A stretch of 64,000 nt of DNA from Candidatus Moraniibacteriota bacterium (GCA_963778555.1 CAVZUR010000003.1:117704-181703); one strand, 5' to 3'; shown: positions 9,743 through 53,153, counted from the stretch's first letter. Numbers and translations: made by a program. The notes: generated by a model from the sequence alone, not told the origin.

Positions 9743-9824
9743 TGGGCGGGGAGGGACTTGAACCCTCATGCCTATTGGGCACAACATTTTAAGTGTCGCG
9801 TGTATACCATTCCACCACCCGCCC
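9743..9824 (-). tRNA. tRNA-Leu(TAA), class II with long variable arm
   Basis: Folding the reverse complement gives acceptor GGGCGGG/CCCGCCC, a 3-bp D stem, anticodon loop CTTAAAA and T-arm GAGGG-TTCAAGT-CCCTC. Confidence 0.85.
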
Positions 9825-9834
9825 ATGTTGTAAA

Positions 9835-9854
9835 GTGTATACCATTCCACCACC
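9835..9854 (-). repeat. 20-nt exact duplicate of the tRNA-Leu(TAA) 5' acceptor/D-arm (GTGTATACCATTCCACCACC), also present at 9800-9819
   Basis: A direct repeat that I found by reading the sequence. Confidence 0.8.
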
Positions 9855-9888
9855 TTGCCTACCGGCTGGCTGGCGCGGCACGTATGTG

Positions 9889-9959
9889 AGGCCAGAAGGA
9901 GAGTCGAACTCCTGTACGAGGTTTTGCAGACCTCTTCCTAACCGCTCGGACATCTGGCC
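9889..9959 (-). tRNA. tRNA-Cys(GCA)
   Basis: The reverse complement folds with acceptor GGCCAGA/TCTGGCC, anticodon loop CTGCAAA and discriminator U73, which is typical of Cys. Confidence 0.8.
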
Positions 9960-22689: not shown

Positions 22690-22870
22690 AATCTCACTCG
22701 CTTCGCTCTTTGAGAACCCCTCGGTTCTCAACGCTCCCATTCGACTTTTCTCATGGTCACTACTCTCCGCCACAGGAAAACTCCCGTTTTCCCGACCCCT
22801 TTCCCGTTCTCCTCCCGTTCCCCAGAAAAAACCAAAAGACCCAGGGGATCTGGATCTTTTGGTTCTTGTG

Positions 22871-22942
22871 AGCGGGTAACGGGAGTCGAACCCGTATCTT
22901 GACCTTGGCAAGGTCACATAATAGCCGCTATACGATACCCGC
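22871..22942 (-). tRNA. tRNA-Gly(GCC)
   Basis: The reverse complement folds with acceptor GCGGGTA/TACCCGC, anticodon loop TTGCCAA and discriminator U. Confidence 0.85.
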
Positions 22943-22965
22943 GGATCTGATTTTCAACTTGCCTG

Positions 22966-23038
22966 TGGGTCCGGATGGACTCGAACCATCGACCAAGCGG
23001 TTATGAGCCGCCTGCTCTAACCGCTGAGCTACGGACCC
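22966..23038 (-). tRNA. tRNA-Met(CAT), elongator type (G1:C72); the tRNA-Ile2(lysidine) alternative cannot be excluded
   Basis: The reverse complement folds with acceptor GGGTCCG/CGGACCC and anticodon loop CTCATAA. Confidence 0.8.
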
Positions 23039-23067
23039 GAGAGAGGCGCGATAGGGCGAAAACCCTG

Positions 23068-23139
23068 TGCCGGGGGGCAGAATTGAACTGCCGACGCAAG
23101 GATTTTCAGTCCTTCGCTCTACCACTGAGCTACCCCGGC
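23068..23139 (-). tRNA. tRNA-Phe(GAA)
   Basis: The reverse complement folds with acceptor GCCGGGG/CCCCGGC, anticodon loop CTGAAAA and discriminator A. Confidence 0.85.
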
Positions 23140-23294
23140 GAAACATCTCCCATTATCCCGGACTGGCTGAAAAAAGCAACCTTCAGACGGTTCCGGGGAC
23201 CACGCAGCGGTGGGTAGTGAAGCACACCTATCTAACTGTCAACAAATAGGGAACTTTTGACTCTCTCTACTTGCCCCGAACCAAAATGGAACCG

Positions 23295-23368
23295 TGGACG
23301 ATGCTGGACTCGAACCCGCGACCCTCTCGGTGTAAACGAGATGCTCTAACCAACTGAGCTAATCGTCC
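23295..23368 (-). tRNA. tRNA-Val(TAC)
   Basis: The reverse complement folds with acceptor GGACGAT/ATCGTCC and anticodon loop TTTACAC. There is one G-A mismatch in the T stem. Confidence 0.8.
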
Positions 23369-23466
23369 GGGCGCTCTATGACGAGACCAAACTACCCCCG
23401 ACTGTTCCATGGTACCTAGGTCGCTATAAAAAAGAAAGCTGGCTCAAGACCAGCTTCATTCCTTTG

Positions 23467-23550
23467 TGCCCAAGAGAGGACTCGAACCTCCAATCCCTTG
23501 CGGGAACTAGCACCTCAAGCTAGCGCGTATACCAATTCCGCCACCTGGGC
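23467..23550 (-). tRNA. tRNA-Leu(GAG), class II
   Basis: The reverse complement folds with acceptor GCCCAGG/CTTGGGC, anticodon loop TTGAGGT and a long variable arm. Confidence 0.85.
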
Positions 23551-25125: not shown

Positions 25126-25409
25126 TCCTTACCTAACAGCTCGCCCTTCAAACTTGTCCCCGTGTTATACCTATCAACTAGGCTCCTAGCATGCCATCCC
25201 TGTCCGTGAGTGTCAATGCCTCTTGTACTTCATTATTCGCGATAAATACCATGGGTTGTATTAATTCTGGCTCATAACCGTCCAGGGAGGCAATTAAGGC
25301 GCGATAGACGCCCGAGTTGACACTCGCATTTGACCTCTCTATCATGGTTAGGCGTCTCCTAATTTTCGAGGTCGCGAAACACAATTTTTTACTCATTTTA
25401 TCCAACACT

Positions 25410-26057
25410 ATGGACCAACAAGAGGGGTGCTGCGGGGGTGGGTGCTGCGATCAAGCAGGGGCGGATGGTCTGGGATATTTCCCGGTCATTGGAAGCACCG
25501 TGCCGAATCTCGAATTCGATTATTATCACCAGGAGGGATTTCATCACTCGCATTTCTCCGATCACCGTGGGAAGTGGGTTATCGTATTCTTCTACCCAGG
25601 CGACTTCACTTTCATTTGTCCGACCGAGCTTCAGGAGCTGGCGGCCAGTTATGAAAAGTTAAAGGCGCTCGGAGCGGAGGTACTGTCGGTAAGTACGGAC
25701 TCCAAACATGTCCATAAAGCGTGGCATGACCAATCCGTTGCGGTAAAGAATGTGAATTTCCCTATGCTCGCTGATCCGTCCGGCGATATCTCGGATGCGT
25801 TCGGTGTGCTCATTCGCGATACTAAGAGCGAGGACTATGGACGAGCGCTGCGTGGCTCATTCATCATCGATCCGGATGGCGTACTGCAGGCCTATGAGGT
25901 CCATGCCAACAATGTCGGCCGTTCTGCTGATGAACTCCTCCGGAAGCTGGAGGCCTGTATTTTTGTCCGTGAACACGGCGGCGAGGTCTGTCCCGCCAAC
26001 TGGAAAAAAGGTGGCAAGACGTTGAAGCCAGGCATCGACCTCGTCGGAAAAATCTAA
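25410..26057 (+). CDS. typical 2-Cys peroxiredoxin (AhpC/Prx1-like) with an unusual Cys-rich N-terminal extension (CCGGGCCDQ)
   Basis: FTFICPTEL holds the peroxidatic Cys and VCPANW the resolving Cys. The N-terminus MDQQEGCCGGGCCDQAGADG is unusual. Confidence 0.8.
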   Translation: MDQQEGCCGGGCCDQAGADGLGYFPVIGSTVPNLEFDYYHQEGFHHSHFSDHRGKWVIVFFYPGDFTFICPTELQELAASYEKLKALGAEVLSVSTDSKHVHKAWHDQSVAVKNVNFPMLADPSGDISDAFGVLIRDTKSEDYGRALRGSFIIDPDGVLQAYEVHANNVGRSADELLRKLEACIFVREHGGEVCPANWKKGGKTLKPGIDLVGKI

Positions 26058-30687: not shown

Positions 30688-30752
30688 TCTCCTCCTTCCG
30701 AGCAAAGTGAAATTCTCGCCCGTGACTCGCTGGGTTTTGCTCGGCTCAAGAA

Positions 30753-30785
30753 AAAAGCGTGTATACTGGGAGAGCAAAGAAAACT
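30753..30785 (+). promoter_or_regulatory. conserved 5' block AAAAGCGTGTATACTGGGAGAG... shared with the paralog at 31675-31707 (extended -10-like TGTATACT plus GGGAG Shine-Dalgarno)
   Basis: About 33 nt are nearly identical immediately upstream of both pilin-like genes. Confidence 0.3.
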
Positions 30786-31550
30786 ATGAGTCAACACCTC
30801 AGTGCTTCCATTCTCGTGGTCGTCGGGATGATTTCGGTCGGGTTCGCGACCCCCGTCCAAGCGATGCACGATGGCCTGCTACACGAATACACTCAAGCCG
30901 CTTGCCAAGCTGAAACCGGCACCTGCAAACCTGGGGGCAATTCGTGCTTAGTGGGGCCTCAAGGAGAGGATTTGCTTGGATATTGTGATGGGCCAACCAA
31001 TGCCGTGAGCTGCTGTAAGCTCAAACCCACCGCCACCGCTCCCAATACGCAATTCAACTGTACTAATGTTCTGAGAGGAACCTGCAAGCTCGTCTCAGTC
31101 GGCTGTGGCGCCGGTATCACTCCCTTGGCTCCAGGGTCGAGCTGCGGCGTCGATGCGGCAGGAATCGGCCGCATCTGCTGCCCCATACCCGCGCCCGTCA
31201 CCGCTCCCACCCAAGTCACCGGCCCCAACCTGGGGAATTATCAGCTCCTGGAGCAGATTCCCGGCTCGACGAATACAGTCGGCAGCCTCAAGACCTATCT
31301 CGAGGATATGTATCGCTTCGCGTTCTGGACGGTTGGGATCGCGGTCGTTCTCATGCTCACAGTTGGCGGCTTCATGTATATGACGTCGGCAGGCAATACT
31401 TCGCGCATGTCGACAGCTAAAACGGTGATCTTCGATGCTATCCTCGGCCTCATTCTCGCACTCATGGCCTGGCTCTTCTTGTACGTCATCAACCCTGATT
31501 TGGTCAATCTCACGTTACCGACGGGGGTGACGGTGACGCCGGGAACTTAG
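30786..31550 (+). CDS. secreted Cys-rich protein with C-terminal TrbC/VirB2-pilin-like two-helix membrane module
   Basis: A signal peptide MSQHLSASILVVVGMISVGFATPVQA, then a Cys-rich region with 14 Cys, then FAFWTVGIAVVLMLTVGGFMYMTSAGNTSRMSTAKTVIFDAILGLILALMAWLFLYVI. Confidence 0.55.
   Translation: MSQHLSASILVVVGMISVGFATPVQAMHDGLLHEYTQAACQAETGTCKPGGNSCLVGPQGEDLLGYCDGPTNAVSCCKLKPTATAPNTQFNCTNVLRGTCKLVSVGCGAGITPLAPGSSCGVDAAGIGRICCPIPAPVTAPTQVTGPNLGNYQLLEQIPGSTNTVGSLKTYLEDMYRFAFWTVGIAVVLMLTVGGFMYMTSAGNTSRMSTAKTVIFDAILGLILALMAWLFLYVINPDLVNLTLPTGVTVTPGT
31197..31543 (+). repeat. 347-bp exact direct repeat (copy 1) encoding the shared TrbC/VirB2-like module; copy 2 at 32224-32570
   Basis: Identical byproduct ORFs 31295..31513 and 32322..32540. 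The offset is 1027 bp. Confidence 0.8.
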
Positions 31551-31628
31551 CTCAATATCTCAATAATCACAGCCTTGCATGTTGGATGATTGAGTCAAAA
31601 CATTGATTCACTGCCCGATCCGTCCTGA

Positions 31629-31661
31629 ATATGACTCGCGCGACGAGTCATATTTCTTTTC
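31629..31661 (+). terminator. intrinsic terminator: 10-bp perfect stem ATATGACTCG-CGCGA-CGAGTCATAT followed by TTCTTTTCTTCT
   Basis: A hairpin plus T-rich tract 80 bp after the stop codon of the first pilin-like gene. Confidence 0.55.
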
Positions 31662-31707
31662 TTCTCTCAGCCGAAAAGCGTGTATAATTGGAAAGGAAAA
31701 GAAAATC

Positions 31708-33183
31708 ATGAAAAAAAATGTCTCAACTTTTGTTTTTGGCACTGCCCTTGTCTTGATACTGCTTTCCTTTGCTGGACTAGCCAAGACTGCTTCTGCTCAA
31801 CAGTATACTCAACAGCAATGCCTTTCCATCTCTGGAGGTTTTGGTGCCTCCGAGGCTAATTGTGTTAGCAACGGGGATGTGAAGCTCGGGGATTATTTGA
31901 ATACCGCCTGCGTGGTAAATGGGGTTTGCTGCGGACCGATTTCAAGTCTTGGAAGAACGCCAAGCGGACCTGGCTGTGTCGCTCAAACTTGTGATCAGAT
32001 TGGAGGGGTGTGCACGACTGGGGCCTGCGGCACTGGCTTTGGTCCTGGACCAGCTGGGGCCTGCACCACTGGTCAATGCTGCATCCCAGGTGGAGGTGGT
32101 TCGTGTGCAAGCCAGGGTGGGACCTGTATGGGTAGCCTGACGCAAACCTGCGCTTCGCTCGGTCGGCAAACAGCCAGCGGGAGCTGCTTCACCCCGGGTC
32201 AGAATTGCTGCGGTGCTGCCATCGTCACCGCTCCCACCCAAGTCACCGGCCCCAACCTGGGGAATTATCAGCTCCTGGAGCAGATTCCCGGCTCGACGAA
32301 TACAGTCGGCAGCCTCAAGACCTATCTCGAGGATATGTATCGCTTCGCGTTCTGGACGGTTGGGATCGCGGTCGTTCTCATGCTCACAGTTGGCGGCTTC
32401 ATGTATATGACGTCGGCAGGCAATACTTCGCGCATGTCGACAGCTAAAACGGTGATCTTCGATGCTATCCTCGGCCTCATTCTCGCACTCATGGCCTGGC
32501 TCTTCTTGTACGTCATCAACCCTGATTTGGTCAATCTCACGTTACCGACGGGGGTGACGGTGACGCCGGGGGCCGCGACAGGGGTGGGGACGACTCCCGC
32601 GACACCTGCCGCTCCGACGATTACAACCCCTTTTCAATGCGGTCAAAACAGCGGTAATTGCAAGACCGGCAATCCTGCTAATCCCGTCTGCCTCCCGAAT
32701 GAGACCAAGATCGGGACCTGCGACGGGGGAGCAGGTGTGAACAACTGCTGCGCCGCCGCGGGAGTTGTCCCGGCCTGTAACTCGCTCCCCGGAGTCACCT
32801 GCGCGCCATGCGCCAATTGCTCTGTGATAGGCAGTAATATTCCATTCAAACCCTGCGGACTTGCACAGTGCTATCTGAACAGCGCACTGTTAGGAAAAAT
32901 ATCAAATATTACCGGCGTCTCGGGTTGGCGCGTCACTGAATCGTGGCCGCCGACGGTCGCACATATCAGCTTCTGTCATGCCAATGGCACGTGCGCCGAT
33001 ATTAACAATAGCGGCGGGCCAACCGACCCCGCGACCATCAAGACCTATTTTGATGCATTCCGAGCTGCTGGCCTGAATGTATTGTATGAGAATGGGGCGA
33101 GTTGCGCTCCCTACAATGCACTGGGTATAAATTGCGCGAGCTACCCCACCCAGACGAACCTCTCTTCGTTCCATGTTCAGTAG
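31708..33183 (+). CDS. secreted Cys-rich protein, paralog of 30786..31550, with identical central TrbC/VirB2-like module and additional Cys-rich N- and C-terminal domains
   Basis: The signal peptide is MKKNVSTFVFGTALVLILLSFAGLAKTASA. There are about 40 Cys in Gly-rich context, and the middle 115 aa are identical to gene 1. Confidence 0.55.
   Translation: MKKNVSTFVFGTALVLILLSFAGLAKTASAQQYTQQQCLSISGGFGASEANCVSNGDVKLGDYLNTACVVNGVCCGPISSLGRTPSGPGCVAQTCDQIGGVCTTGACGTGFGPGPAGACTTGQCCIPGGGGSCASQGGTCMGSLTQTCASLGRQTASGSCFTPGQNCCGAAIVTAPTQVTGPNLGNYQLLEQIPGSTNTVGSLKTYLEDMYRFAFWTVGIAVVLMLTVGGFMYMTSAGNTSRMSTAKTVIFDAILGLILALMAWLFLYVINPDLVNLTLPTGVTVTPGAATGVGTTPATPAAPTITTPFQCGQNSGNCKTGNPANPVCLPNETKIGTCDGGAGVNNCCAAAGVVPACNSLPGVTCAPCANCSVIGSNIPFKPCGLAQCYLNSALLGKISNITGVSGWRVTESWPPTVAHISFCHANGTCADINNSGGPTDPATIKTYFDAFRAAGLNVLYENGASCAPYNALGINCASYPTQTNLSSFHVQ
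32224..32570 (+). repeat. 347-bp exact direct repeat (copy 2)
   Basis: See copy 1. Confidence 0.8.
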
Positions 33184-33214
33184 GTTTGCTATCTACCGAA
33201 ATTGATAATCTCCC

Positions 33215-34357
33215 ATGAAAAAACTCTTCATCATTTCCGGGTCATTCTTCCTCCTCGTCCTCGCGTTTCTCGCGGTCTATAATTTTGCGTTCAAGAACAA
33301 CACCTCCAATCCAATCGCCGATCCAGAGAAGAAGGCGGCTGCGGAGAAGAAAGACGAGACCGCCGCAGAAACAGTCACGCGCTCGGTCGCCTTTGAACAG
33401 ATTCTCACTGAGAACGTTTTCCAAGCTACCGCAGGGGAAACGGGGATCTTCTACTATTCCAAACGCGACAATCTGCTCAAAGAATCAACCTTCGACGGCA
33501 AACGCACCATACCGAGGACGGGACAGCTCCCTGGCACACCTGCGCGTATCGTCTGGTCGCCCAACTTACTCGGCGCCCTCTTTCTCGTGAAGGAAACCGG
33601 GGGTGATCTTTGGTATTACGCTGATCTCCGCAACCAAGCCATCACCCCGCTCAAAAAAGGCTGGTCTCGCCTCGCCTGGACCAGCCTCAGTGATCGTATC
33701 CTCTACCAATACACTGACCCTGTCACTGGCGACCGGACCATGAATATCGCCTATCCTGATGGTTCAAACTGGACCAAGCTCGCTGATTTAGGCAAAGATG
33801 ACCACTTCATCTCTGTTATCCCCCAATCGAGCCTAATTGCTTTCTGGCCAAAAACTGACGGGGGACGTGAGAGCGCGCTCGAGACCGTCAATATCAACGG
33901 CCAGAACCGCCGTACTGTCCTCGCCGGCCGGTTCGGTGCGGATTTCCTTTGGTCGCCAGACAGCCGGCGTATCCTCGTCCAAAGTATCACAGCTCGTAAT
34001 GGGAATATGCTCGTGCTCGGACTCGTTGACGAAAATGGCATCGGCTACAAGGATCTCCATGCGCCGACTCTCGTCTCAAAAGTCGCCTGGTCAAAGAACA
34101 ACGATACTTTCTATTATTCACTCCCGGGGGCTTTTCCATCCGACGTCATACTGCCCAACGATTATTTCGGCAAGCCAGCGTACAGCAAGGATACCTTCTG
34201 GAAAATGAACGTGCGGACCGGCAAGAAAGAGCGGCTCGTACCGCTCGGCGACATGCAGATGGCTTTCGATGCGACGGACGTATTCCTCTCTCCGACCGAG
34301 ACTGATCTCTACTTCGTCGATCGGACCACTGAAAAGCTCTACCGTATCACGCTCTGA
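33215..34357 (+). CDS. membrane-anchored beta-propeller protein (TolB/PD40-like repeats)
   Basis: An N-terminal TM helix. WSPN...LWSPDSRRIL...KVAWSKNNDTFYY recurs as a repeat typical of PD40-type propellers. Confidence 0.45.
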   Translation: MKKLFIISGSFFLLVLAFLAVYNFAFKNNTSNPIADPEKKAAAEKKDETAAETVTRSVAFEQILTENVFQATAGETGIFYYSKRDNLLKESTFDGKRTIPRTGQLPGTPARIVWSPNLLGALFLVKETGGDLWYYADLRNQAITPLKKGWSRLAWTSLSDRILYQYTDPVTGDRTMNIAYPDGSNWTKLADLGKDDHFISVIPQSSLIAFWPKTDGGRESALETVNINGQNRRTVLAGRFGADFLWSPDSRRILVQSITARNGNMLVLGLVDENGIGYKDLHAPTLVSKVAWSKNNDTFYYSLPGAFPSDVILPNDYFGKPAYSKDTFWKMNVRTGKKERLVPLGDMQMAFDATDVFLSPTETDLYFVDRTTEKLYRITL

Positions 34358-35366
34358 TCCGAAGTGCGGCTACACACAGCCCCAGACAGCCCCAGACGGC
34401 CAGCGCAAGGTCGTTTTTCATATACGGCGTATCAACCAGTCCCGAGACCAGGTAGAGTACTAGAAGCGCGCAGGCAAGCGTACTGAGGCCGCTGGACGCT
34501 TCTGGCGCCTCTACAGTCAACGCTCTCATCTGAGGATGCCGAAAGACATACGTCAGTACACCCAAGAAACCAATCAATGTAAGCACTCCACCCTCGAGGA
34601 GCAGGGTCAGGTAGAGATTGTGCGGCGTCGGCACCGCCCATTCGAGGTAGGGCTGGTAGAGAGGTTGATAACCCAGATAGACTTCCTGGAACCGCCCTGG
34701 CCCGATGCCCCATGGGAAACTCTCGGTGACCGCCCTCCCTGCGACACGCCAGATTATGAGACGCGACGCGAGAGACGTACGGCTATCGCCCGAAATAAGA
34801 CTCTGCCATTTCTGAGACTCTTGCTCTTGGAAAATTCCAATTCCTCCCAGACAGAGCAATAGTCCGAGAATAAGGACGAACTGACGACGCTTGGTTCGCC
34901 ACTGCATCCAGGCCAGCGAGAGGAGTCCGACCATAACCCCTAGCCAGGTGCTGTACGAATGCGTCAGGTACAGTACCACGACAATCAGGCTGCCGGACAA
35001 GGCGGTCAGCACACGGATGAGAATCGATCGATACGAACTAAAGAAGAAAATCGATAGCGGCACTCCCGGGGCTAAGAGCAGCGCAAGATAATTCGCTGAC
35101 TGATAGGGGCCGGCGAGTCGGCCATCATAGAGGAACCAGCCGAAGGAAGCCGCTGTTAAACTCGCACCCGCAGCAGCTGAAAGACCAAGAAGCCACGCTC
35201 CAAAGAGCCACACGAGCCGCTCACGCGTCGCTCCCCAGAAGATGATGAGGAGACTGAAGAATCCGGGGATGAAATAGAAACTTTTTATTTTCCCAAGGCC
35301 GGAAGGCACATGCGGATTGGTAAAATACGACAGTACAACTCCCGCAATGAAGAGTCCGAGCCACAC
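34347..35366 (-). CDS. O-antigen ligase/polymerase family membrane protein (Wzy_C-like)
   Basis: It has at least 10 TM helices, the Wzy_C-like loop HNLYLTLLLEGGVLTLIGFLG and a large periplasmic loop. Confidence 0.6.
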   Translation of the reverse strand: MWLGLFIAGVVLSYFTNPHVPSGLGKIKSFYFIPGFFSLLIIFWGATRERLVWLFGAWLLGLSAAAGASLTAASFGWFLYDGRLAGPYQSANYLALLLAPGVPLSIFFFSSYRSILIRVLTALSGSLIVVVLYLTHSYSTWLGVMVGLLSLAWMQWRTKRRQFVLILGLLLCLGGIGIFQEQESQKWQSLISGDSRTSLASRLIIWRVAGRAVTESFPWGIGPGRFQEVYLGYQPLYQPYLEWAVPTPHNLYLTLLLEGGVLTLIGFLGVLTYVFRHPQMRALTVEAPEASSGLSTLACALLVLYLVSGLVDTPYMKNDLALAVWGCLGLCVAALRIRA

Positions 35367-35641
35367 GAAAAATATTCGCTCTGTGATCAGAATTTCACGG
35401 AAACGGAGAGTGGTCGACAGACTGCCTCATGGCAACGACGAGTACCCCGCCACGATGAGAACCACTGTCTCACCAAGATAGAGTGGCAGTCCGAACAGGG
35501 AGATAGGTGAGCAATTGGGAGGAACAGAAACACTGCTGCGAGCAACGCGAGAATCGGGTCCGAAAAAGCTGTCCGGACACGGTCTACGAGAGGGAAGGGT
35601 GAAGTTTTCTCTCGCCATATAACTCTATTCTATCAGGCGGC

Positions 35642-36960
35642 TCAGCCGTTTTGCGTCGCCTGAGGTCCGTCCACCTCTGCGAGTGCGAGGCACAAGACCA
35701 GAAGCAACATACTGTATGTAGAGAAAAGCGCAGTTTCAAAAAACGAATGCACGAGATACAAAACGAGAGCAGCTAATACAGCTGGTGCGAGTGCCCAGCG
35801 CTGACTCGCTCGAATCAGTCGCCTCAGGGCATGGAACAACATGCCCAAGAAAAAAACCAGGCCTATGAAGCCGAGTTCGACTGTCACATCCAGATAGAGG
35901 TTATGCGCATAAAACGGTGTCTCCGGCGAAGCGATCGGCCGGACAGAGCGTCAAATAATTGCCGATCCCAGTGCCAAATACGGGCGTTTGAGCAATGGTG
36001 TGAAACGCCTCGCGCCAGAGGGTGATCCGCTCGATACTTGAAGCGTCTCTGAGGGAGAAGCTGGTGAGAAAACGGGACAGGATCGGTCCGCCCGCGATGA
36101 GGAGAAGGAGGAAGCTCCTCCCAACACCGGCCCAATCGATGTTTTCCGCTCATAGAAAGAGTTGGCCACACCAGCCACAGTATAGAGCCCTGTCGCCGCC
36201 ACAAGTCCGACATATCCCCCCCGGGAGAAAGTAAGAATATCCACGAGAAAAAGCAGTGCGGCGATCCAGAGATAGCGAGACTGACGAGATACCCCCGCGA
36301 GGCCGAGTGCCAAGAATCCGCTCATACCGAAGAAATATGCCGCCACATGCGGGTCAGGAAAAAGCGCTGATGCGCGCAGTATCGTCACGCCGTCGATATT
36401 CACCAGTAGGCTTGGGTACGCGGCGACCATACTTCCCGAGTTCGCGACCGAGGAAAAACGGGAGCAGGCGATCAATGAGAACATGGAACGTCACACCGAC
36501 TCCCCAGACGAACTGGGAAAGGAACAGAATAAGCGCGACAGCCGCAGCAGCGGCGGCGCCCCAGACAAGCGCTGAAACCAGCATAGCCTGAGTCTGAATC
36601 TCACGCTCGAAACAGATCATTCCAGACAAGGATGAGTGGAAAGAAATTGATAAGGAAAACGATCTTGGGAAGCGCCGCTCCAACCGGGACGCCCAGAGCA
36701 GAGAGCCGGCGGCCACCACTAGGAATGAAGTCCAGAGGCCGACGAATACCAGGCGGGGCAACAGCCAGACCGGCGTGAAAAAACGGTGATTAGAAAAGCG
36801 ATAAGGTAAGCACCGCCACGAATCGCGAAAGTGGGATATCCCAGCGACCCAGGAATGGAAGGGTGAACTGAAAGGGAAGCGTGATGAGGAGGAGAGCGGA
36901 GAGATGATATACCATATGGCTTCAGAAGATGGATCGGAGTTTGTTTCCGAGGACCAGGCA
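35642..36960 (-). pseudogene. second O-antigen-ligase-like gene fragmented into at least 3 ORFs (35642..35887, 35951..36484, 36354..~36960) by frameshifts
   Basis: The fragments carry the ligase-like motifs LLFLVDILTFSRGGYVGLVAATGLY and HSFFETALFS in different frames. Confidence 0.4.
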
Positions 36961-36967
36961 GGCGGTC

Positions 36968-37713
36968 TCATAGGCTGGCTGCCATTTTTGAAAGTATTGT
37001 CTTTGGCCGGCTCGATAGGCCAGTTTTTTTCCTTTTTGTCATATGGCTTTGACCGCCCAGATGTTGGAGGACCACGAAGGGATACACCCCAATCCAACCC
37101 TCTGCCAAAGTCGCCCGCCGACAAAAATCAACGTCTTCAAAGTAGAGGAAAAAATCCTCATCGAAACCTCCCAGTGCCTGGAAAAACTCCCGCCGAATCG
37201 CTAAGGCCGCGCCGGATACCCACTCTGTCTTTGTCACCTGCGTCGCGCACCACGGATGAGACAGCCAGAGGGGAAAAGATTTGTGCGGACAAGCTGAGCG
37301 AGGCTTGGAAATCGGCCGGCGCTCCACACTTCCCGCCTTCCCGCTTCTTGCTCAAGCGCCATGCCGTACACTGCTTTCGGTCGAAAACGGAAGGCTTCAA
37401 GCAATCCGAGAAAATTACCCTGAACGAATCGGGTGTCAGGATTGATAAAAAGAAGAATCTTCCCAGAAGCAAGTTTCGCCCCAATATTATTGGCAGCGCC
37501 AAAGCCAAGATTCTGTTCGGTGTGAACCACCTGGGTCTGGGGAAAATCAACGATACTTCGTTCGACTTCCGCCCGCTCACGCTCATCATTATTGACCACG
37601 ATATGCTCAGCCAAAAGAGAGTCTCCCAGCGACTGTTGAAGGCTCAGTAGTGCCGCTTTAAGCAGCACTACGCTGTGATAATTCACGAATATGAAAGAGA
37701 TATCAGGTTTCAT
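36968..37713 (-). CDS. family 2 glycosyltransferase interrupted by a frameshift (N-terminal part 37234..37713, C-terminal part 36968..37327)
   Basis: The N-terminus has ISFIFVNYHS and NNDERE. The C-terminus has LAIRREFFQALGGFDEDFFLYFEDVDFCRRA. The two parts overlap out of frame. Confidence 0.55.
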
Positions 37714-38561
37714 ACAGAGGCATCAGTATACGCCCGTTTCACCTCCTTTGCTATTTGATTGTCAGTCCACCACATGTCAAGTCGATTCTTGAATTTTCGT
37801 AGTGTGAGATAGAGCGGTGCCCAATACCTCCAGATTCCACGACTCTCTCGTAGGAAGAATTCTGTTCCAGAACGGACGAGCCAATAGGTCTTTTCTGGGC
37901 TCGCCTCGCTTTGCTCAACATGATGGACAATCGACTTCGGCACGACCCAGAGAGGAAAGTTGTTACGCATTGCTCGGAATGAATACTCCGCATCCTCATA
38001 GTAGAGAAAATACCGCTCATCTAATTGGCCCAGGACCTCGAGCGCCTCGGCTGGAATAAAAAGCGCGCAACCCGTTAGAAAGCCTGTTTGAAAGGGAGCT
38101 CCTGAGACCGATTTCTGATCATGGAGCGTTCGCATCCGTGCAAAATCTATCCTACCGCCCGAAAACCATATTTTTCGTTCCGGTTCAGAATAAATGACAG
38201 GGGAAAACAGCGCCTGAGACCCCAGCTCGAGACAGGCGCGCTTCAGTTCGGAAAGCGCTTCGGGATCAGCGACCACGTCATTATTCACAATCCAATAGGC
38301 ATCAAATCCGCCTGCGGCTTGCATCTGACGGAGGCCAGAATTCATGCCAGCCGCAAAGCCATGGTTCATGCCCAGAGTTATCGTCTCAATCAACGGGAAA
38401 AGCTCCTTCATCCGCTCCAACAAAGGCTGCTCGGATCCGTTATCTACTACCAGGATGCGATCTCCGAGACTCAGTGTACGAGTGAGGGAAGTGAGGCAGG
38501 GTTGAATCACGTTTTCGCCTCGATAATTTAAAACGATGACAGCAACACGCAAAGTAGCCAT
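37710..38561 (-). CDS. family 2 glycosyltransferase
   Basis: VAVIVLNYRGENVI...VVDNGS and the YYEDAE motif. Confidence 0.8.
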   Translation of the reverse strand: MATLRVAVIVLNYRGENVIQPCLTSLTRTLSLGDRILVVDNGSEQPLLERMKELFPLIETITLGMNHGFAAGMNSGLRQMQAAGGFDAYWIVNNDVVADPEALSELKRACLELGSQALFSPVIYSEPERKIWFSGGRIDFARMRTLHDQKSVSGAPFQTGFLTGCALFIPAEALEVLGQLDERYFLYYEDAEYSFRAMRNNFPLWVVPKSIVHHVEQSEASPEKTYWLVRSGTEFFLRESRGIWRYWAPLYLTLRKFKNRLDMWWTDNQIAKEVKRAYTDASV

Positions 38562-38564
38562 ATC

Positions 38565-40022
38565 TTAGGCTGAGAGCGGCTCGAATGAGTCTTCCTTTGG
38601 ATCCTCGCTGGAGTTGAAAATGCTCGCAACTTCCTTTGAAGTCACAGCTCGAGTCAGCCATAAAAGGCTAACGTACGATACTCCTCCGAGGAACAACGAG
38701 ACGAGAAAAGACAAGTGGACAGAAAGCGTGAGGACCACCGCCATGACTCCTGCTGAAAGAAAAATACGCACGAGCCGGTCTGGCTTCGGGAAAAATCCAA
38801 GAGTGCGGAAAGCGATAAGACCCGAAACGATCACTACCACAGCCTCAGTTACGGCGGACGAAACAGCCGCACCAAAATAGGAGTACTCTCGAATGAGAAG
38901 GATGTTCATGACGACATTCATCAAGGCTATGATCGCGAGCGCCTTCAAGAGTTTTTTCTGGGCATTCCCGACGAGAATGAGCATATTGAAGTAGTGGCCA
39001 AAGAAGATGCCCGCCAATGAGAATATAAGGACGCGCAGCACATTAGCTGAGACCTCGAATCCTGAACCACTGACGATGGCGACAATGTCGGGAGCTAGAA
39101 AGAGCGTCCCGATAACGATGGGGAGGACGATGGCTATAAAGACTTTAGCGGTTTTGTCAGCGATACCGCGGAATTCTCGCTGGTCTGTCTGATGAGCACG
39201 TGCTAGCAAGGGAAGGATGAGCCCGACCAGCATCGCTGGAAAAAAGATGAGATTCTCCATAATTTTGTAGGCGACATTATAGATACCCACATGCGCTGCC
39301 GGCTGGAGAAGCGAAAGTATAATCGTATCTAATTTGAAGTACGCGAAGGTGATAATAGCCGTGAGGCCTAGCGGCCAAGCATCACGCATAAAGGACTTCC
39401 AGAAGGAGACATCCCAAGTAAAGTGGAATCGGACCAGTTTCCAGGACAGGAACAGCGCCACGCACGCATTGAAAAACATCGTCGCAAGGACCGCCGCGAT
39501 GATTGCAAGAAAGCCGAGATCAAATTTGACCGCCAGATAGACAAGGCAGAATTGAAGGATTTTCCCTGCAAACTCCACCATCGCCACCCGATCCATTGCC
39601 AGCCGTTTTTGGAAGATTCCGTTGAGCAGTGTGCTGAACTGCGCGAATAGGAGTGCTATGGTCACGATTACAATGCCTCCTTTGACATGCGGGACGTAAT
39701 GGAGCAGTCCGAGAAGAATCGGTGCTCCGATAATAATCGCTAGGCTTGAAATAATTCGGAGCGTCGCCACTTTTCCGAGAAAGGACTCTTCGTCAACGGT
39801 CGGCTTGGCGATCTCCCGGGCGGTAATCGTCGCGAGTCCGAGGTCGCCAATAGCCCCGAAGAAAGCAAAGAAGGCGAGAACGGTTGCATACTCACCAAAA
39901 CCCTGTTGGCCGAGATAGCCAGTGATGAGACGGATGGAGAGAAGTGCGATGAAAACAGTCGACGTCACTTTGAGCGCCGAGTTAAATACGACGTTGTAGG
40001 CGATTCTTCGCGCGAGAGCCAT
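38565..40022 (-). CDS. wzx: oligosaccharide flippase, Wzx/polysaccharide biosynthesis protein family (MOP superfamily)
   Basis: A 485-aa protein with about 12-14 TM helices and an N-terminus MALARRIAYNVVFNSALKV... typical of the family. Confidence 0.75.
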   Translation of the reverse strand: MALARRIAYNVVFNSALKVTSTVFIALLSIRLITGYLGQQGFGEYATVLAFFAFFGAIGDLGLATITAREIAKPTVDEESFLGKVATLRIISSLAIIIGAPILLGLLHYVPHVKGGIVIVTIALLFAQFSTLLNGIFQKRLAMDRVAMVEFAGKILQFCLVYLAVKFDLGFLAIIAAVLATMFFNACVALFLSWKLVRFHFTWDVSFWKSFMRDAWPLGLTAIITFAYFKLDTIILSLLQPAAHVGIYNVAYKIMENLIFFPAMLVGLILPLLARAHQTDQREFRGIADKTAKVFIAIVLPIVIGTLFLAPDIVAIVSGSGFEVSANVLRVLIFSLAGIFFGHYFNMLILVGNAQKKLLKALAIIALMNVVMNILLIREYSYFGAAVSSAVTEAVVVIVSGLIAFRTLGFFPKPDRLVRIFLSAGVMAVVLTLSVHLSFLVSLFLGGVSYVSLLWLTRAVTSKEVASIFNSSEDPKEDSFEPLSA

Positions 40023-40033
40023 GGAGGAAACGC

Positions 40034-40531
40034 TTAAAGGGCCTTCTCTTCTACTGTGTCTGGTTTGAGTTTTATGAGCACTTTCCGCTCTTCGCCAGCA
40101 CCAACACTCTCCGTCATGACTGCGGGATGGGAAGCGAGAAGATGATGAATCATTTTCCTCTCGAACGAAAGCATAGGCCGGAGTGTCGCTGGGAGGCCAG
40201 TCGCTTCCACTTCTTTTGCTACCAACAGAGCCTCGCGCTCCAAAAAAGAGCGCTTCTCTTCAAAGTAATGATTTACATCCAGGCTGATTATCGCGTCTTT
40301 TGGCGCCGTTTGGCGAGCGATCAGCTTCACAAGATGGAGGAGCGCCCCCACATTGCCGCCGTGCTGGCCGATAAGCAGATTCTGCCCATCCTGGAGGATG
40401 ATCTCACAGTGATACCGCACTTGGCCATGTTCCGCCATCTCCTCTCCTGTCTTGACCTCCGCCACGAAACCGAGGCGCTGCAACAAGTCCTTAACTGTTA
40501 TGGTGAGGTATTGACGAAATGGTTGTTCCAT
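40034..40531 (-). CDS. jag: Jag-like KH/R3H RNA-binding protein (SpoIIIJ-associated)
   Basis: A KH-like N-terminus and an R3H C-terminus, in the conserved position downstream of yidC. Confidence 0.75.
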   Translation of the reverse strand: MEQPFRQYLTITVKDLLQRLGFVAEVKTGEEMAEHGQVRYHCEIILQDGQNLLIGQHGGNVGALLHLVKLIARQTAPKDAIISLDVNHYFEEKRSFLEREALLVAKEVEATGLPATLRPMLSFERKMIHHLLASHPAVMTESVGAGEERKVLIKLKPDTVEEKAL

Positions 40532-40537
40532 GATACT

Positions 40538-41302
40538 TTATGCCTTTGTTACAGGGGGGACTGCTGTTTTTTGATGAGAAAAGATCCATTTCTGTTGGAG
40601 CCACGCCAAGAGTGTTGAAACGAACCAATACAGGGAGAGTGCAGCGGGAAACTGAAAACTAAAGAAGAACACCATCGCCGGGCCTAGATAAAGCATCTGC
40701 TTTCCCATTATAGCAGCCATATCCGGCATATCACCGCTCGCCTTCTCGCCCTTTTTACGAGTGCTTATTGCGCTTGCTTGCGGAAGAATCATTTTTGTTT
40801 GGAAGTACTGTGCGAGGGCTCCGAGTGCGCCGAGAACTGGGCTCGCTTTCACCATGTCTAGGAAACCGAAGGCGAGGTGCTTAATCTCTCCAGGATTTGG
40901 AACAAATGAGTAAATATCGGCACTTTTCACAACCAAGCCATTCTCGCTGATATTGATTATGACCCGATAAAAAGTGATGAAAAACACGAGTTGAATAAGA
41001 AGGGGGAGACAACCAGCGAAAGGGTTGACCTTATTTTCCTTATAACAAGCCATTATCGCCTTAGTCTGCTCACCCTTATCTGATTTATATTTTTCTTGGA
41101 TCGCCTTGAGCTTTGGCTGTATATCCTGCATCCGTTTCTGCTGCTCAATTTGCATCCGAGAAAGCGAGAAAAAAGCGGTTTTAATGAGGATGGTAGTCAG
41201 GATGATCGCCAAGCCGAAATCTTGGACTGGGAGGCTAGAATAGAAAAAAATAACGGCATTATAGAGCGGTTGGTAAATGAGGGTGTGGAAAATCTCGACC
41301 AT
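40538..41302 (-). CDS. yidC: membrane protein insertase YidC (short form)
   Basis: A 254-aa protein with the YidC/Oxa1 core TM pattern, in rnpA-yidC synteny. Confidence 0.85.
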   Translation of the reverse strand: MVEIFHTLIYQPLYNAVIFFYSSLPVQDFGLAIILTTILIKTAFFSLSRMQIEQQKRMQDIQPKLKAIQEKYKSDKGEQTKAIMACYKENKVNPFAGCLPLLIQLVFFITFYRVIINISENGLVVKSADIYSFVPNPGEIKHLAFGFLDMVKASPVLGALGALAQYFQTKMILPQASAISTRKKGEKASGDMPDMAAIMGKQMLYLGPAMVFFFSFQFPAALSLYWFVSTLLAWLQQKWIFSHQKTAVPPVTKA

Positions 41303-41304
41303 AG

Positions 41305-41652
41305 TTATTTTTTCGCTTTAATAAGCCTTTCAACAAGTTCAGCAAGTACTTTTTTTAGATATGGATACTCCACAGGCCCAGGATGGGGCTTATGAAAAAG
41401 AATCACGATATCAGTGTTTTTAGGCAATAATGGTGCAATTTCCCCCATTATCGCACTTCCTTTCCTCTTCAGGAAATTCCGAGTGACAGCCCGGGGAAAG
41501 ACCTTCTGTTTAAAAGCAAAGCCGACACGCGTGCCCGATGGTGCCCCGGGACGAGAAAAAAGGCTGATTTCTGATCCAGAGATAACTTTTCGAGCCCGGA
41601 AGACCGCTTCAAACCCCTCCCTTCCTTGCAAACGGAGGTGTTTCGGAAGCAT
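41305..41652 (-). CDS. rnpA: ribonuclease P protein component
   Basis: A 115-aa basic protein (LRLQGREGFEAVF...) in rpmH-rnpA synteny. Confidence 0.8.
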   Translation of the reverse strand: MLPKHLRLQGREGFEAVFRARKVISGSEISLFSRPGAPSGTRVGFAFKQKVFPRAVTRNFLKRKGSAIMGEIAPLLPKNTDIVILFHKPHPGPVEYPYLKKVLAELVERLIKAKK

Positions 41653-41655
41653 AGG

Positions 41656-41796
41656 TTAGACGGAGAGCTTCTTCCTCCCTTGCCGGCGGCGGCGAGTAAT
41701 GACTGCTTGGCCGCCTTTTTCGCTCATCCGTTTTAGAAAACCGTGACGACGGGCACGACGGCGCTTTTTTGGCTGATAGGTGCGTTTTGTGGCCAT
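41656..41796 (-). CDS. rpmH: 50S ribosomal protein L34
   Basis: Hand translation gives [46 protein letters not shown]. No ORF of this size was in the supplied track. Confidence 0.9.
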
Positions 41797-42033
41797 AGGT
41801 TATAAGAAATACATGTAGTCCAATTTTATTTTAAACAAAGGGAAAAGTCAACCTGGCCGGGGTCAATGCACCACCTTTCCCTCATTTTTTACCCACTTCT
41901 AAATTAAGTCAGCGACTTTTCTCCCTCCTTATTTTTTCGGCCATTTATACACTGATTCTCCACATATTATGCACTCTTCATTCTCGATGAAGTTGGCGGC
42001 ACATGGTACAATCAGATTTACTTGCTTTGCGCT

Positions 42034-43458: not shown

Positions 43459-43668
43459 GTCTGTATTACACTGTATGATTATTGCTTATCTTGTGGATAA
43501 ACTCTCCTCACTAACACTTTATCTCCATGAAACGAATTTTTCATACAATTCTATCCACTCGTTTATACTAAAAAATCCGCTTATCTAGGCTCTTAACCTA
43601 TGTTTCCCACTTATACAGATGACTAATAACAATAATATTTATATAAATATTCTTTATAGATTACTCTC
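43459..43668. promoter_or_regulatory. probable oriC: perfect DnaA box TGTGGATAA at 43492-43500, TATCCAC-core box at ~43551-43560, AT-rich DUE 43624-43660, between dnaA and dnaN
   Basis: Seen directly in the sequence, with the rpmH-dnaA-dnaN arrangement around it. Confidence 0.6.
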
Positions 43669-51720: not shown

Positions 51721-51723
51721 AGC

Positions 51724-53136: not shown

Positions 53137-53153
53137 AAGGAAGGAAGAAAGAA

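What the first reader, a model, noticed from the sequence alone, without database searches (positions are those of the whole stretch)
30750..33183. Two adjacent paralogous Cys-rich surface proteins that share an exactly identical 347-bp TrbC/VirB2-pilin-like module and a conserved 5' leader
Both genes encode a signal peptide, a Gly/Cys-rich extracellular region (about 14 and 40 Cys) and the same two-helix hydrophobic hairpin (FAFWTVGIAVVLMLTVGGFMYMTS-AGNTSRMSTAKT-VIFDAILGLILALMAWLFLYVI). That hairpin resembles conjugative T-pilin (VirB2/TrbC) topology. The module is 100 percent identical at DNA level (31197-31543 and 32224-32570) while flanking sequence diverges. This points to recent gene conversion or cassette exchange between the paralogs. 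The second gene adds a large Cys-rich C-terminal domain, so the module would be internal rather than C-terminal, which is unusual for VirB2-like pilins. About 33 bp upstream of each start codon are nearly identical. A strong hairpin terminator separates the two genes, so they are transcribed independently. No T4SS ATPase is linked, and the only secretion ATPase in the window is PilB, about 26 kb away. These may be pilin-like adhesins or S-layer-like surface proteins typical of CPR bacteria. Nearly all of the extracellular portion is disulfide-rich.
Basis: partly seen in the sequence, partly recalled or inferred. Interest (0 to 1): 0.72.

Follow-up and report, generated by a model that had tools for sequence, protein, structure and literature searches.

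The report
Pilin-anchored wall-enzyme genes sharing one module
Two neighbouring genes of an ultrasmall (Moranbacteria-type, candidate phyla radiation) bacterium encode surface proteins built around the same conjugative-pilin-like membrane hairpin, which gene conversion keeps identical while the outer parts differ; one gene carries a predicted cell-wall-peptidase-type domain, and both carry disulfide repeats predicted to fold like animal beta-defensins.

Summary
Gene A is 30786-31550 (254 aa, 12 Cys) and gene B is 31708-33183 (491 aa, 34 Cys). They share an exact 348-bp repeat (31196-31543 = 32223-32570) with flanks at random-level identity. The repeat encodes a full Pfam T4SS_pilin (PF18895, VirB2-like) two-helix hairpin.

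3. In six other genomes, paralogous pilin modules are 85-98% identical at DNA level over 195-416 bp. They group by genome rather than by gene type, which is concerted evolution. An independent k=31 assembly breaks exactly at the repeat's 3' edge, so an artefact is unlikely.

No T4SS machinery lies in the 64 kb. The locus sits in a conserved chromosomal slot about 9 kb from dnaA. VirB2-like pilin arrays in Patescibacteria are already published; the enzyme fusion, the defensin-like repeats and the homogenised module are a new variant.

The parts
30753..30767 (+). Shared upstream core AAAAGCGTGTATACT of gene A, with a -10-like TATACT at 30762-30767, 18 nt before the ATG
30786..31550 (+). Gene A, 254 aa: signal peptide, two defensin-like repeats, then the pilin module. 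The stop codon lies 7 nt after the repeat ends
   Evidence: A is collinear with the first 247 aa of the 420-aa relative P0100
30786..30863 (+). Predicted signal peptide of A (aa 1-26, ...PVQA|MHD)
   Evidence: Hydropathy. The cleavage site is inferred by eye
30903..31016 (+). Defensin-like six-Cys repeat A1 (aa 40-77, spacing 6/6/12/8, ends CC)
31059..31181 (+). Defensin-like six-Cys repeat A2 (aa 92-132, spacing 7/6/12/10, ends CC)
31196..31543 (+). Copy 1 of the exact 348-bp repeat, the T4SS_pilin (PF18895) module of A. It includes the NYQLLEQIPG motif and the two-helix hairpin
31627..31665 (+). Intrinsic-terminator-like hairpin (12-bp stem, 5-nt loop) plus a T-rich tail between the genes
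31674..31688 (+). Shared upstream core AAAAGCGTGTATAAT of gene B, with a -10 TATAAT at 31683-31688, 19 nt before the ATG
   Evidence: The same leader precedes the orthologue in L001
31708..33183 (+). Gene B, 491 aa: signal peptide, Cys-rich N-terminal region, pilin module, T/P-rich linker, a fourth Cys repeat, then a LAS-fold domain
31798..31935 (+). First Cys-rich domain of B (aa 31-76, 5 Cys, QC...GDYLN...GVCC), pLDDT above 90
31990..32082 (+). Defensin-like repeat B2 (aa 95-125, spacing 6/4/11/4, ends CC)
32104..32211 (+). Defensin-like repeat B3 (aa 133-168, spacing 6/7/11/6, ends CC)
32223..32570 (+). Copy 2 of the exact 348-bp repeat, the T4SS_pilin module of B. Helices are aa 203-235 and 240-270 (32314-32517)
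   Evidence: Logan contig L038 starts at 32541
32572..32637 (+). Thr/Pro/Ala-rich linker predicted to be disordered (aa 289-310)
   Evidence: pLDDT below 50
32638..32751 (+). Defensin-like repeat B4 (aa 311-348, spacing 6/9/9/8). It is the repeat most similar to A1 (34% identity)
32776..33180 (+). C-terminal LAS / Hedgehog-DD-peptidase-fold domain (aa 357-491). Conserved residues are E411, H419, H424, G427, D431, E461 and H489
33215..34357 (+). Conserved neighbour: a 380-aa membrane-anchored protein of unknown family. It is adjacent to the pilin fusion gene in more than 20 related loci and lies between the two pilin genes in L017-L020

Best explanation
A and B are two independently transcribed members of a modular family of envelope proteins from Moranbacteria-type Patescibacteria.

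Shown:
- Each protein is exported by a signal peptide and held in the membrane by a VirB2-family (Pfam T4SS_pilin) two-helix hairpin.
- The segments before and after the hairpin are disulfide-rich, which fits an outside location.
- A carries two Cys repeats with the beta-defensin framework. B carries about three such repeats before the hairpin. After the hairpin B has a T/P-rich linker, a fourth repeat and a LAS-fold domain with an H-x6-D...H triad.
- The hairpin module is homogenised between paralogues by repeated gene conversion.

Inferred:
- The short Arg/Lys-containing loop of the hairpin faces the cytoplasm.
- The LAS domain is a zinc peptidase, or at least a binder of peptidoglycan stem peptides. 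Related genomes pair it with a second pilin fusion that carries a lysozyme-like (SLT_3-type) domain.
- The family would then supply the cell-wall-cutting function (VirB1-like) that is usually reported missing next to Patescibacterial VirB2 genes. It would be delivered on, or next to, the VirB2 filament or T4SS platform, and would act on the cell's own wall or on the host's wall at the contact site.
- The module stays identical because both products must fit the same assembly partner.
- The shared module also acts as a recombination handle that shuffles outer domains.
For: Pilin module:
- PF18895 matches over its full length. The score is 26.6 bits for A and 29.4 bits for the module alone.
- 21 of 22 diverse family modules match PF18895.

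LAS domain:
- AF2 pLDDT is above 90 for aa 360-491.
- H424, G427 and H489 are invariant, and H419 and D431 are at least 90% conserved, in 99 homologues.
- There are 490 cluster representatives at E <= 1e-3. Of 127 new ones, 113 have the pilin module upstream, and the rest are mostly fragments.

Partner enzymes:
- The second pilin genes in L017 and L018 have SLT_3-like C-termini (E 1e-3 and 4e-5) with an AES...GLFQIN motif.
- In other genomes the same chromosomal slot holds a pilin fusion with an SxHxxGxAxD...HxH C-terminus.

Concerted evolution:
- Within-genome module identity is 94, 98, 95, 87, 92 and 87% at DNA level over the last 85 codons in L014, L017, L018, L019, L020 and L022.
- Between the three related genomes L018, L019 and L020, orthologous modules are only 78-82% identical.
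- The homogenised tracts are 195-416 bp.

Not an artefact:
- Logan contig L038 (run ERR11593397) begins 30 nt inside the 3' end of the repeat. That is where a k=31 assembly graph would branch.

Literature:
- VirB2-like arrays are widespread in Patescibacteria, and one such array is reported essential for epibiotic growth.
- Most genomes with VirB2 lack a recognised VirB1 (PMC12102498, PMC12857230).
Against: - No VirB4, VirB6, VirD4 or other T4SS gene lies in the 64 kb. A link to a T4SS therefore rests only on the family assignment of the hairpin.
- Neither Pfam M15 models nor PDB sequence profiles detect the C-terminal domain.
- In B the first His of the LAS HxH motif is Ser487 (SSFHV). More distant relatives keep HFH. 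B may therefore be inactive or use other residues.
- A has no enzyme domain at all.
- Bulky domains on both ends of a 70-aa pilin core may not fit a VirB2-type filament. This could not be tested.
- No model coordinates were available, so the zinc-site geometry and the disulfide pairing were not checked.
Confidence: 0.6

Rival explanations
1. Anchor only. The VirB2-like hairpin is just a two-pass membrane anchor inherited from a pilin ancestor. A and B would be ordinary cell-surface proteins (autolysin-type peptidase or binding proteins) with no pilus and no T4SS role. The module identity would be a by-product of conversion between close direct repeats.
For: - There are no T4SS genes in the window.
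- The locus sits in a conserved housekeeping slot: prx-sod-nrdA-nrdB-pilin fusion-380 aa-Wzy_C.
- The proteins are 3-7 times larger than canonical VirB2.
Against: - The module keeps the whole PF18895 profile (positions 2-71 of 71) and a strongly conserved pre-helix motif Y-x-LLE-x-IPG. That is more conservation than a simple anchor needs.
- Homogenisation recurs in at least seven genomes, which suggests selection for sameness.
- VirB2-like genes are reported far from virB4 in many Patescibacteria: 1,948 assemblies have them, and they lie near virB4 in only 1,135.
Confidence: 0.25
2. Non-catalytic ligand binder. The LAS-fold domain of B has lost catalysis, as the Hedgehog signalling domain has. 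It would serve as a recognition or adhesion module for peptidoglycan stem peptides of a host cell, with the defensin-like repeats as further binding modules.
For: - The best structural matches are Hedgehog N-domains rather than enzymes.
- Ser replaces the first His of HxH in B and its closest relatives.
- Pfam peptidase models do not match.
- The repeats have net charge near 0, so they are not membrane-active cationic peptides.
Against: - The three metal-ligand positions and two Glu residues (E411, E461) are invariant or nearly so across the family.
- An extra nearly invariant His419 could replace the missing His.
- Paralogues in the same slot keep canonical SxHxxGxAxD...HxH motifs.
- Partner genes carry lysozyme-like domains.
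Confidence: 0.2
3. Assembly artefact. The identical segment would come from collapse or bubble-popping of two diverged copies, or from a chimeric join.
For: - Only one public assembly carries these exact proteins (singletons).
- Short-read assemblers can erase small differences between repeat copies.
- No reads were available to map.
Against: - The path unique-repeat-unique-repeat-unique has only one possible order.
- An independent Logan assembly ends exactly at the repeat's 3' boundary with B's continuation, as expected for a true two-context repeat.
- Six other independently assembled genomes show the same module-limited near-identity at graded levels of 85-98%.
- Both reading frames stay intact, and A's gene call matches the database entry.
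Confidence: 0.05
4. Simple recent duplication. The whole gene would have been duplicated recently and the flanks then replaced, with no ongoing conversion.
For: Tandem orientation and similar upstream sequence (27 of 35 nt).
Against: - Identity drops from 100% to random within a few bases at both edges.
- A is collinear with a different gene type (P0100, 52% identity over 236 aligned residues) than B is.
- Modules group by genome across related species. That pattern needs repeated exchange after speciation.
Confidence: 0.03

Closest known systems
VirB2-like pilin arrays of Patescibacteria (Quinonero-Coronel et al. 2025, PMC12102498; Wang et al. 2023, as cited in PMC12857230)
   Same: - Adjacent genes match Pfam PF18895 in a candidate-phyla-radiation genome.
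- The location is chromosomal and near dnaA.
- There is no relaxase, and often no virB4, nearby.
   Different: - Published arrays are described as sequence-divergent small pilins (mean 25% and maximum 54% amino-acid identity). Here the pilin module is 100% identical at DNA level while the rest is unrelated.
- The proteins are 254 and 491 aa, with extra extracellular domains on both sides of the hairpin.
- I found no mention of enzyme fusions or of homogenisation in that paper.
VirB1-type cell-wall hydrolases of monoderm T4SS (PrgK, TcpG and TraG types: lytic transglycosylase plus peptidase)
   Same: Across the family there is a glycosidase-like domain (SLT_3-like, in partner genes of L017-L020) and a peptidase-fold domain, both membrane-tethered and both associated with a T4SS protein family.
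   Different: - The two activities are on separate proteins, each fused to a VirB2-like hairpin.
- The peptidase fold is LAS (MD clan), not CHAP or M23.
- No activity has been shown.
- No T4SS genes are adjacent.
LAS / MD-clan zinc peptidases and Hedgehog N-domain (MepA, VanX, VanXY, phage L-Ala-D-Glu peptidases, Shh-N)
   Same: - The H-x6-D...H metal triad is conserved.
   Different: - There is no detectable sequence-profile match.
- The domain has four to five extra disulfide-forming Cys pairs.
- The first His of HxH is replaced by Ser in B.
- The domain is always C-terminal to a pilin hairpin.
Beta-defensins / trans-defensins, and rusticalin-like animal proteins (PMC6339383)
   Same: - The six-Cys framework ends in CC, with Gly before C2 and G-x-C before C4.
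- Rusticalin-like proteins likewise combine beta-defensin-like repeats with a Hedgehog/DD-peptidase domain.
   Different: - The repeats are bacterial, tandem and part of a membrane protein.
- Their net charge is about 0 rather than cationic.
- Pfam matches are below threshold (best E 0.015).
- Disulfide connectivity is unknown, so homology versus convergence stays open.
Concerted evolution and domain-limited gene conversion in surface-protein paralogues (for example pilE/pilS in Neisseria and tandem VirB2 paralogues in Bartonella/Anaplasma; cited from general knowledge)
   Same: There is non-reciprocal exchange between nearby paralogous pilin genes.
   Different: In those systems conversion diversifies the exposed part. 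Here it homogenises the buried assembly core, and the exposed domains stay different.

Membership tests
Pfam T4SS_pilin (PF18895, VirB2-like) | HMM score at or above the gathering cut-off (26.6 bits) over the whole profile | tested here: met
   The module alone scores 29.4 bits, positions 2-71 of 71. Full-length A scores 26.6 and full-length B scores 25.0. 21 of 22 family modules match
Pfam T4SS_pilin (PF18895, VirB2-like) | Signal peptide followed by two hydrophobic helices joined by a short polar, positively charged loop | tested here: met
   Hydropathy. AF2 helices 203-235 and 240-270 with pLDDT about 90. The loop is SAGNTSRMSTAKT
Conjugative VirB2/TrbC pilin in the functional sense | Small mature protein (about 70-120 aa) with the hairpin at the C-terminus | tested here: not met
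   The proteins are 254 and 491 aa. There are 110-140 extracellular residues before the hairpin, and about 200 after it in B
Conjugative VirB2/TrbC pilin in the functional sense | Encoded with T4SS machinery (VirB4, VirB6, VirB3 and others) | tested here: not met
   None among about 40 ORFs of the 64-kb window. The rest of the genome was not available
Conjugative VirB2/TrbC pilin in the functional sense | Polymerises into a lipid-containing filament | not testable with these tools
   Needs cryo-EM or biochemistry
Pfam TrbC/VIRB2 (PF04956) | HMM match | tested here: not met
   No match at E <= 1
Type IV (T2SS-related) pilins | Prepilin leader with G|F/M-x-x-x-E and an N_methyl HMM match | tested here: not met
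   No Pfam match at E <= 1. The N-termini are ordinary Sec-type signal peptides
LAS / MD-clan (Hedgehog/DD-peptidase fold) | Fold match to solved members | tested here: met
   [not shown]
LAS / MD-clan (Hedgehog/DD-peptidase fold) | Metal triad H-x(3-6)-D plus a C-terminal His | tested here: met
   H424-x6-D431 and H489. They are invariant or at least 90% conserved in 99 sequences. Their geometry in the model was not inspected
LAS / MD-clan (Hedgehog/DD-peptidase fold) | H-x-H motif (first His catalytic) | tested here: not met
   B has S487-F-H489. More distant family members have H-F-H
LAS / MD-clan (Hedgehog/DD-peptidase fold) | Sequence-profile match to Pfam M15-type models or to PDB sequences | tested here: not met
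LAS / MD-clan (Hedgehog/DD-peptidase fold) | Zinc-dependent peptidase activity on peptidoglycan peptides | not testable with these tools
   Needs a biochemical assay
Beta-defensin / trans-defensin | Six-Cys framework C-x(4-8)-C-x(3-5)-C-x(9-13)-C-x(4-7)-CC | tested here: met
   Five repeats in A and B, with spacings 6/4/11/4, 6/7/11/6, 6/9/9/8, 6/6/12/8 and 7/6/12/10. Some loops are longer than in animal peptides. There are 71 repeats in 49 of 122 family proteins. No ORF outside the pilin fusion genes matches, in the window or in the first 37 related loci
Beta-defensin / trans-defensin | Fold match | tested here: inconclusive
   [not shown]
Beta-defensin / trans-defensin | Pfam Defensin_beta match at threshold | tested here: not met
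   6 of 42 repeats match Defensin_beta (best E 0.015) and 3 match Defensin_beta_2. All are below the cut-off
Beta-defensin / trans-defensin | C1-C5, C2-C4, C3-C6 disulfide connectivity and a cationic surface | not tested
   No model coordinates were accessible. Mean net charge of the repeats is about 0, range -4 to +4, so they are not cationic
S-layer protein | SLH or another S-layer domain | tested here: not met
   No such Pfam or NCBIfam match

The most novel reading that the evidence does not exclude
The Cys-rich repeats would be genuine trans-defensin (beta-defensin-fold) domains in bacteria, where only cis-defensins have been reported. They would sit in one protein with a Hedgehog/DD-peptidase-fold domain, the same pair of folds as in animal rusticalin-like proteins. 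Both would be displayed on a VirB2-type filament. The family would then be a pilus-borne cell-wall-attacking toolkit of epibiotic Patescibacteria, and a possible prokaryotic source of, or parallel to, the beta-defensin fold.
Probability: 0.2. Interest if true: 0.85.

Novelty: new variant of a known kind. Interest (0 to 1): 0.62.

Why it matters
VirB2-like pilins are one of the few gene sets shown to be essential for the epibiotic life of Patescibacteria, and how they work is unknown.

- This locus shows that in one large lineage the pilin core is a carrier for cell-wall-enzyme-type domains. That offers an answer to the reported absence of VirB1 next to these pilins. It also gives testable candidates for how an ultrasmall cell breaches its own wall or its host's wall.
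- It is a clean natural case of concerted evolution restricted to an assembly core while the exposed domains are shuffled.
- If the defensin-like fold is confirmed, it would extend trans-defensins to bacteria.

Tried and rejected
Searches that led nowhere:
- Sequence-profile searches of the PDB found nothing for the C-terminal domain, the Cys repeats (only RNase 7 at E 4.4) or the pilin module.
- Pfam and NCBIfam gave no peptidase match for B.
- The 380-aa neighbour has no family or PDB match.
- Look-up of the contig through P0001 failed.
- The afdb50 fold library was not available. The defensin-like model was therefore compared only with the PDB.

Readings considered and rejected:
- Type IV pilin: no prepilin leader and no HMM match.
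- S-layer protein: no such domain.
- Hevein/chitin-binding domain: the CC pair would lie mid-domain, which does not fit.
- Chance repeat: impossible for 348 exact bases.
- A regulatory RNA leader: the shared upstream sequence is explained by a -10 box plus a purine-rich ribosome-binding stretch. The L001 orthologue has the same leader and other family genes have similar -10 boxes at the same distance.
- A and B sharing homologous N-terminal regions: BLASTP finds only the module, plus weak similarity between repeats A1 and B4.
Full report
**1. Observation.**
The window holds an exact direct repeat of 348 bp, 31196-31543 and 32223-32570. Identity at the same offset falls to 18-42% per 50-nt window immediately outside. 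The repeat lies inside two same-strand ORFs.

With the ATG that follows a purine-rich stretch, the genes are:
- A, 30786-31550, 254 aa, 12 Cys.
- B, 31708-33183, 491 aa, 34 Cys.

A's 254-aa product is recorded exactly in NCBI/ENA on a 219,559-bp contig. B is recorded there only as a 351-aa product starting at Met141. That is probably a truncated call, because homologues such as P0003 align over B's N-terminal 170 residues. BLASTP between A and B aligns only the module and a few flanking residues (120 of 126 identical), plus a weak match between repeats A1 and B4.

**2. The shared module.**
The module matches Pfam T4SS_pilin (PF18895) from profile position 2 to 71 of 71.
- A scores 26.6 bits, which equals the gathering cut-off. 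B scores 25.0. The module alone scores 29.4.
- 21 of 22 diverse family modules match, best E 1.3e-10.
- There is no match to TrbC/VirB2 PF04956 or to type IV pilin models. There is only a weak match to the NCBIfam Mbov_0395 pilin-like family.
- AlphaFold2 with 99 homologues gives two long helices, 203-235 and 240-270, with pLDDT about 90.

The assignment to the VirB2-like family therefore rests mainly on the HMM.

**3. The C-terminal domain of B.**

This is the LAS / Hedgehog-DD-peptidase fold. In 99 homologues H424, G427 and H489 are invariant, and H419 and D431 are at least 90% conserved. H424-x6-D431 plus H489 fits the LAS metal triad, which I know from established descriptions of the family.

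B and its closest relatives have Ser at the first position of the HxH motif (SSFHV). More distant relatives have HFH. Sequence methods did not see the relationship.

A scan of 1.84 billion cluster representatives found 490 relatives at E <= 1e-3. Of the 127 new ones listed, 113 carry the pilin module upstream of the domain, and the others are mostly fragments. The domain subfamily is therefore essentially a dedicated pilin fusion.

**4. The Cys-rich regions.**
Five stretches in A and B follow C-x6-7-C-x4-9-C-x9-12-C-x4-10-CC. The pattern occurs 71 times in 49 of 122 family proteins. It occurs in no ORF outside the pilin fusion genes, in the window or in the first 37 related loci.

- Avian BD3 and BD11.
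- Crocodile BD13.
- Platypus DLP-2.
- Gallin.
- Human BD-6 and BD-1.

Other evidence:
- The Foldseek top ten are the same class but are not significant, with E >= 0.96.
- Scanning 42 isolated repeats against Pfam puts Defensin_beta first (6 members, best E 0.015) and Defensin_beta_2 second (3 members). All are below threshold.
- One relative, P0115, has a weak Defensin_big match.
- The repeats are not cationic; mean net charge is about 0.

I conclude that the framework and the predicted fold are beta-defensin-like. Homology and disulfide pairing remain untested. The literature held here reports only cis-defensins in bacteria (PMC11561630). Animal rusticalin-like proteins combine beta-defensin-like repeats with a Hedgehog/DD-peptidase domain of presumed bacterial or phage origin (PMC6339383). 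That is the same pair of folds.

**5. Family, synteny and partners.**
Homologues are mostly from Candidatus Moranbacteria/Moraniibacteriota and other Parcubacteria MAGs, and several are annotated 'pilin'.

The architecture is modular:
- A signal peptide.
- Zero to four Cys repeats.
- The pilin module.
- Then either nothing, the WPPT...CHxNGTCAD...FHV domain, or an SxHxxGxAxD...HxH domain.

The chromosomal slot is conserved: prx, sod, nrdA, nrdB, pilin fusion(s), a 380-aa membrane-anchored protein, then Wzy_C on the opposite strand, followed by glycosyltransferases and a flippase. In L039 and L040 the slot holds a single P0100-type gene of 420-425 aa. A is collinear with its first 247 residues (52% identity over 236 aligned residues) and stops where that protein continues into its C-terminal domain.

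In L014, L017-L020 and L022 there are two pilin-module genes. In L017-L020 the 380-aa gene lies between them. In L017 and L018 the first gene ends in an SLT_3-like lysozyme domain (E 1e-3 and 4e-5, below cut-off) with an AES...GLFQIN motif, and the same motif is visible in L019 and L020.

**6. Concerted evolution, and the artefact question.**
In those six genomes the two modules share DNA tracts that are 85-98% identical over 195-416 bp and are bounded by unrelated sequence.

Over the last 85 codons of the module, within-genome identity in the three related genomes is:
- L018, 95%.
- L019, 87%.
- L020, 92%.

Orthologous modules between these three genomes are only 78-82% identical. Paralogues thus group by genome, which is the signature of repeated gene conversion after speciation. 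Purifying selection cannot explain zero synonymous differences over 116 codons in the window.

An independent Logan assembly of run ERR11593397 contains a 2,163-bp contig that is 99.86% identical to 32541-34703. It starts exactly 30 nt before the repeat's 3' end. That is where a k=31 graph must branch if the repeat has two continuations. Bubble-popping could still hide a few differences between the copies, and only read mapping can settle that.

**7. Expression signals.**
The 35 nt before each ATG are 27/35 identical. The shared core is AAAAGCGTGTATA(C/A)T, which contains TATACT in A and TATAAT in B, 18-19 nt before the start. A purine-rich stretch follows.

The L001 orthologue has almost the same leader. 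Other family genes have TGnTAnAAT-type boxes at similar distances. The 'leader' is therefore best read as a promoter -10 element plus a short ribosome-binding leader; this is an inference. A 12-bp-stem hairpin with a T-rich tail (31627-31665) lies between the genes.

**8. Context.**
About 40 ORFs were scanned. They include FtsH, RNR, Prx, SOD, PBP1, an ATP-grasp cluster, RuvB, PilB, and rnpA-yidC-jag next to dnaA-dnaN at 40.0-44.8 kb. No T4SS component was found. The genes lie about 9-11 kb from dnaA. T4SS genes of Paceibacteria are reported to sit near dnaA, but here only the pilin-family genes are present.

**9. Mechanism.**
Shown:
- The domain composition.
- The family assignment of the hairpin.
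- The fold of the C-terminal domain.
- The homogenisation of the module.
- The conserved neighbourhood.

Inferred:
- Topology. Both termini would be outside, consistent with disulfide-rich segments on both sides of the hairpin. The R/K-containing loop would be inside.
- Function. The LAS domain would be a zinc peptidase or a stem-peptide binder. Together with the SLT_3-like paralogues it would give a glycosidase plus peptidase pair analogous to the VirB1-type hydrolases of monoderm T4SS.
- Location. The enzymes would be tethered to, or built into, a VirB2-type assembly.
- Reason for identity. Both products would need to fit the same partner.

The direct repeats are in frame, so recombination between them would join A's N-terminal region to B's C-terminal half. 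That gives a plausible route for the domain shuffling seen across the family.

**10. Comparison and novelty.**
VirB2-like pilin arrays in Patescibacteria are published. Those papers report 441 arrays, a mean identity of 25% and a maximum of 54%, and that an array is essential in one cultivated strain. This locus would count as a two-gene array.

I did not find the following described in the papers I could search:
- A fusion of the pilin core to LAS-fold and lysozyme-like domains.
- Beta-defensin-like repeats.
- Homogenisation limited to the module.

I therefore rate it a new variant of a known kind.

**11. Limits.**
- No reads, no model coordinates and no genome beyond 64 kb were available.
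- No activity has been shown.

Noticed in passing
window 33215-34357 (+); L017-L020, L039, L040: A 380-aa protein with an N-terminal membrane anchor and repeated W-S-P-D/N-like motifs, which looks like a beta-propeller. It has no Pfam, NCBIfam or PDB sequence match. It is always next to the pilin fusion gene and lies between the two pilin genes in four genomes, so it is probably a functional partner.
   Followed up: partly
window 34347-40022 (-): A Wzy_C (O-antigen-ligase/PglL-type) gene, two GT2 glycosyltransferases and a Polysacc_synt flippase lie directly downstream, conserved in relatives (two Wzy_C genes in L039 and L040). Together with the Thr/Pro-rich linker of B, this could mean O-glycosylation of the pilin fusion. 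That is speculation.
   Followed up: no
window 40034-44799: A replication-origin-type neighbourhood: rnpA, yidC and jag (R3H) on the minus strand, then dnaA, dnaN and DciA on the plus strand. The pilin genes are about 9-11 kb away.
   Followed up: partly
window 31708-32128: The public gene call for B (P0001, 351 aa) starts at Met141. It omits the signal peptide and most of the N-terminal Cys-rich region. The longer model is supported by homologues and by the promoter/RBS.
   Followed up: yes
window 47751-53298 (-): An unusual cluster next to PBP1: a MATCAP-like (tyrosine carboxypeptidase family) protein, a YdjC-like protein and two large ATP-grasp proteins (RimK/TTL-like, one with a Zn_protease-like tail). 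It may be a peptide-ligase/carboxypeptidase system.
   Followed up: no
window 13563-19269 (-): A 1,328-aa secreted-type protein with GSDH, PKD and five PA14 domains. It is followed by a 568-aa ORF with no Pfam match.
   Followed up: no
window 22870-23550 (-) and 9742-9959 (-): tRNA clusters: five tRNA genes (Gly, Met, Phe, Val, Leu) within 700 bp, and Leu plus Cys at 9.7-10.0 kb.
   Followed up: no
L020 4822-4913 versus 7103-7196; L017 4962-5377 versus 7517-7932: In other genomes the homogenised sequence also covers the signal-peptide and 5' region of the two pilin genes (96% over 94 bp in L020; in L017 the tract runs from the signal peptide through the module). This parallels the similar upstream regions in the window.
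   Followed up: partly
L038 (Logan ERR11593397) versus window 32541-34703: There are three mismatches in 2,163 bp. A near-identical strain or population variant of this organism is therefore present in that run.
   Followed up: no
window 25317-26057 (+): In the longest-ORF model, the AhpC/Prx homologue has about 57 extra N-terminal residues before the Pfam domain. This may be a mis-set start or an export signal. It sits beside Fe/Mn SOD and the RNR genes in the conserved slot.
   Followed up: no
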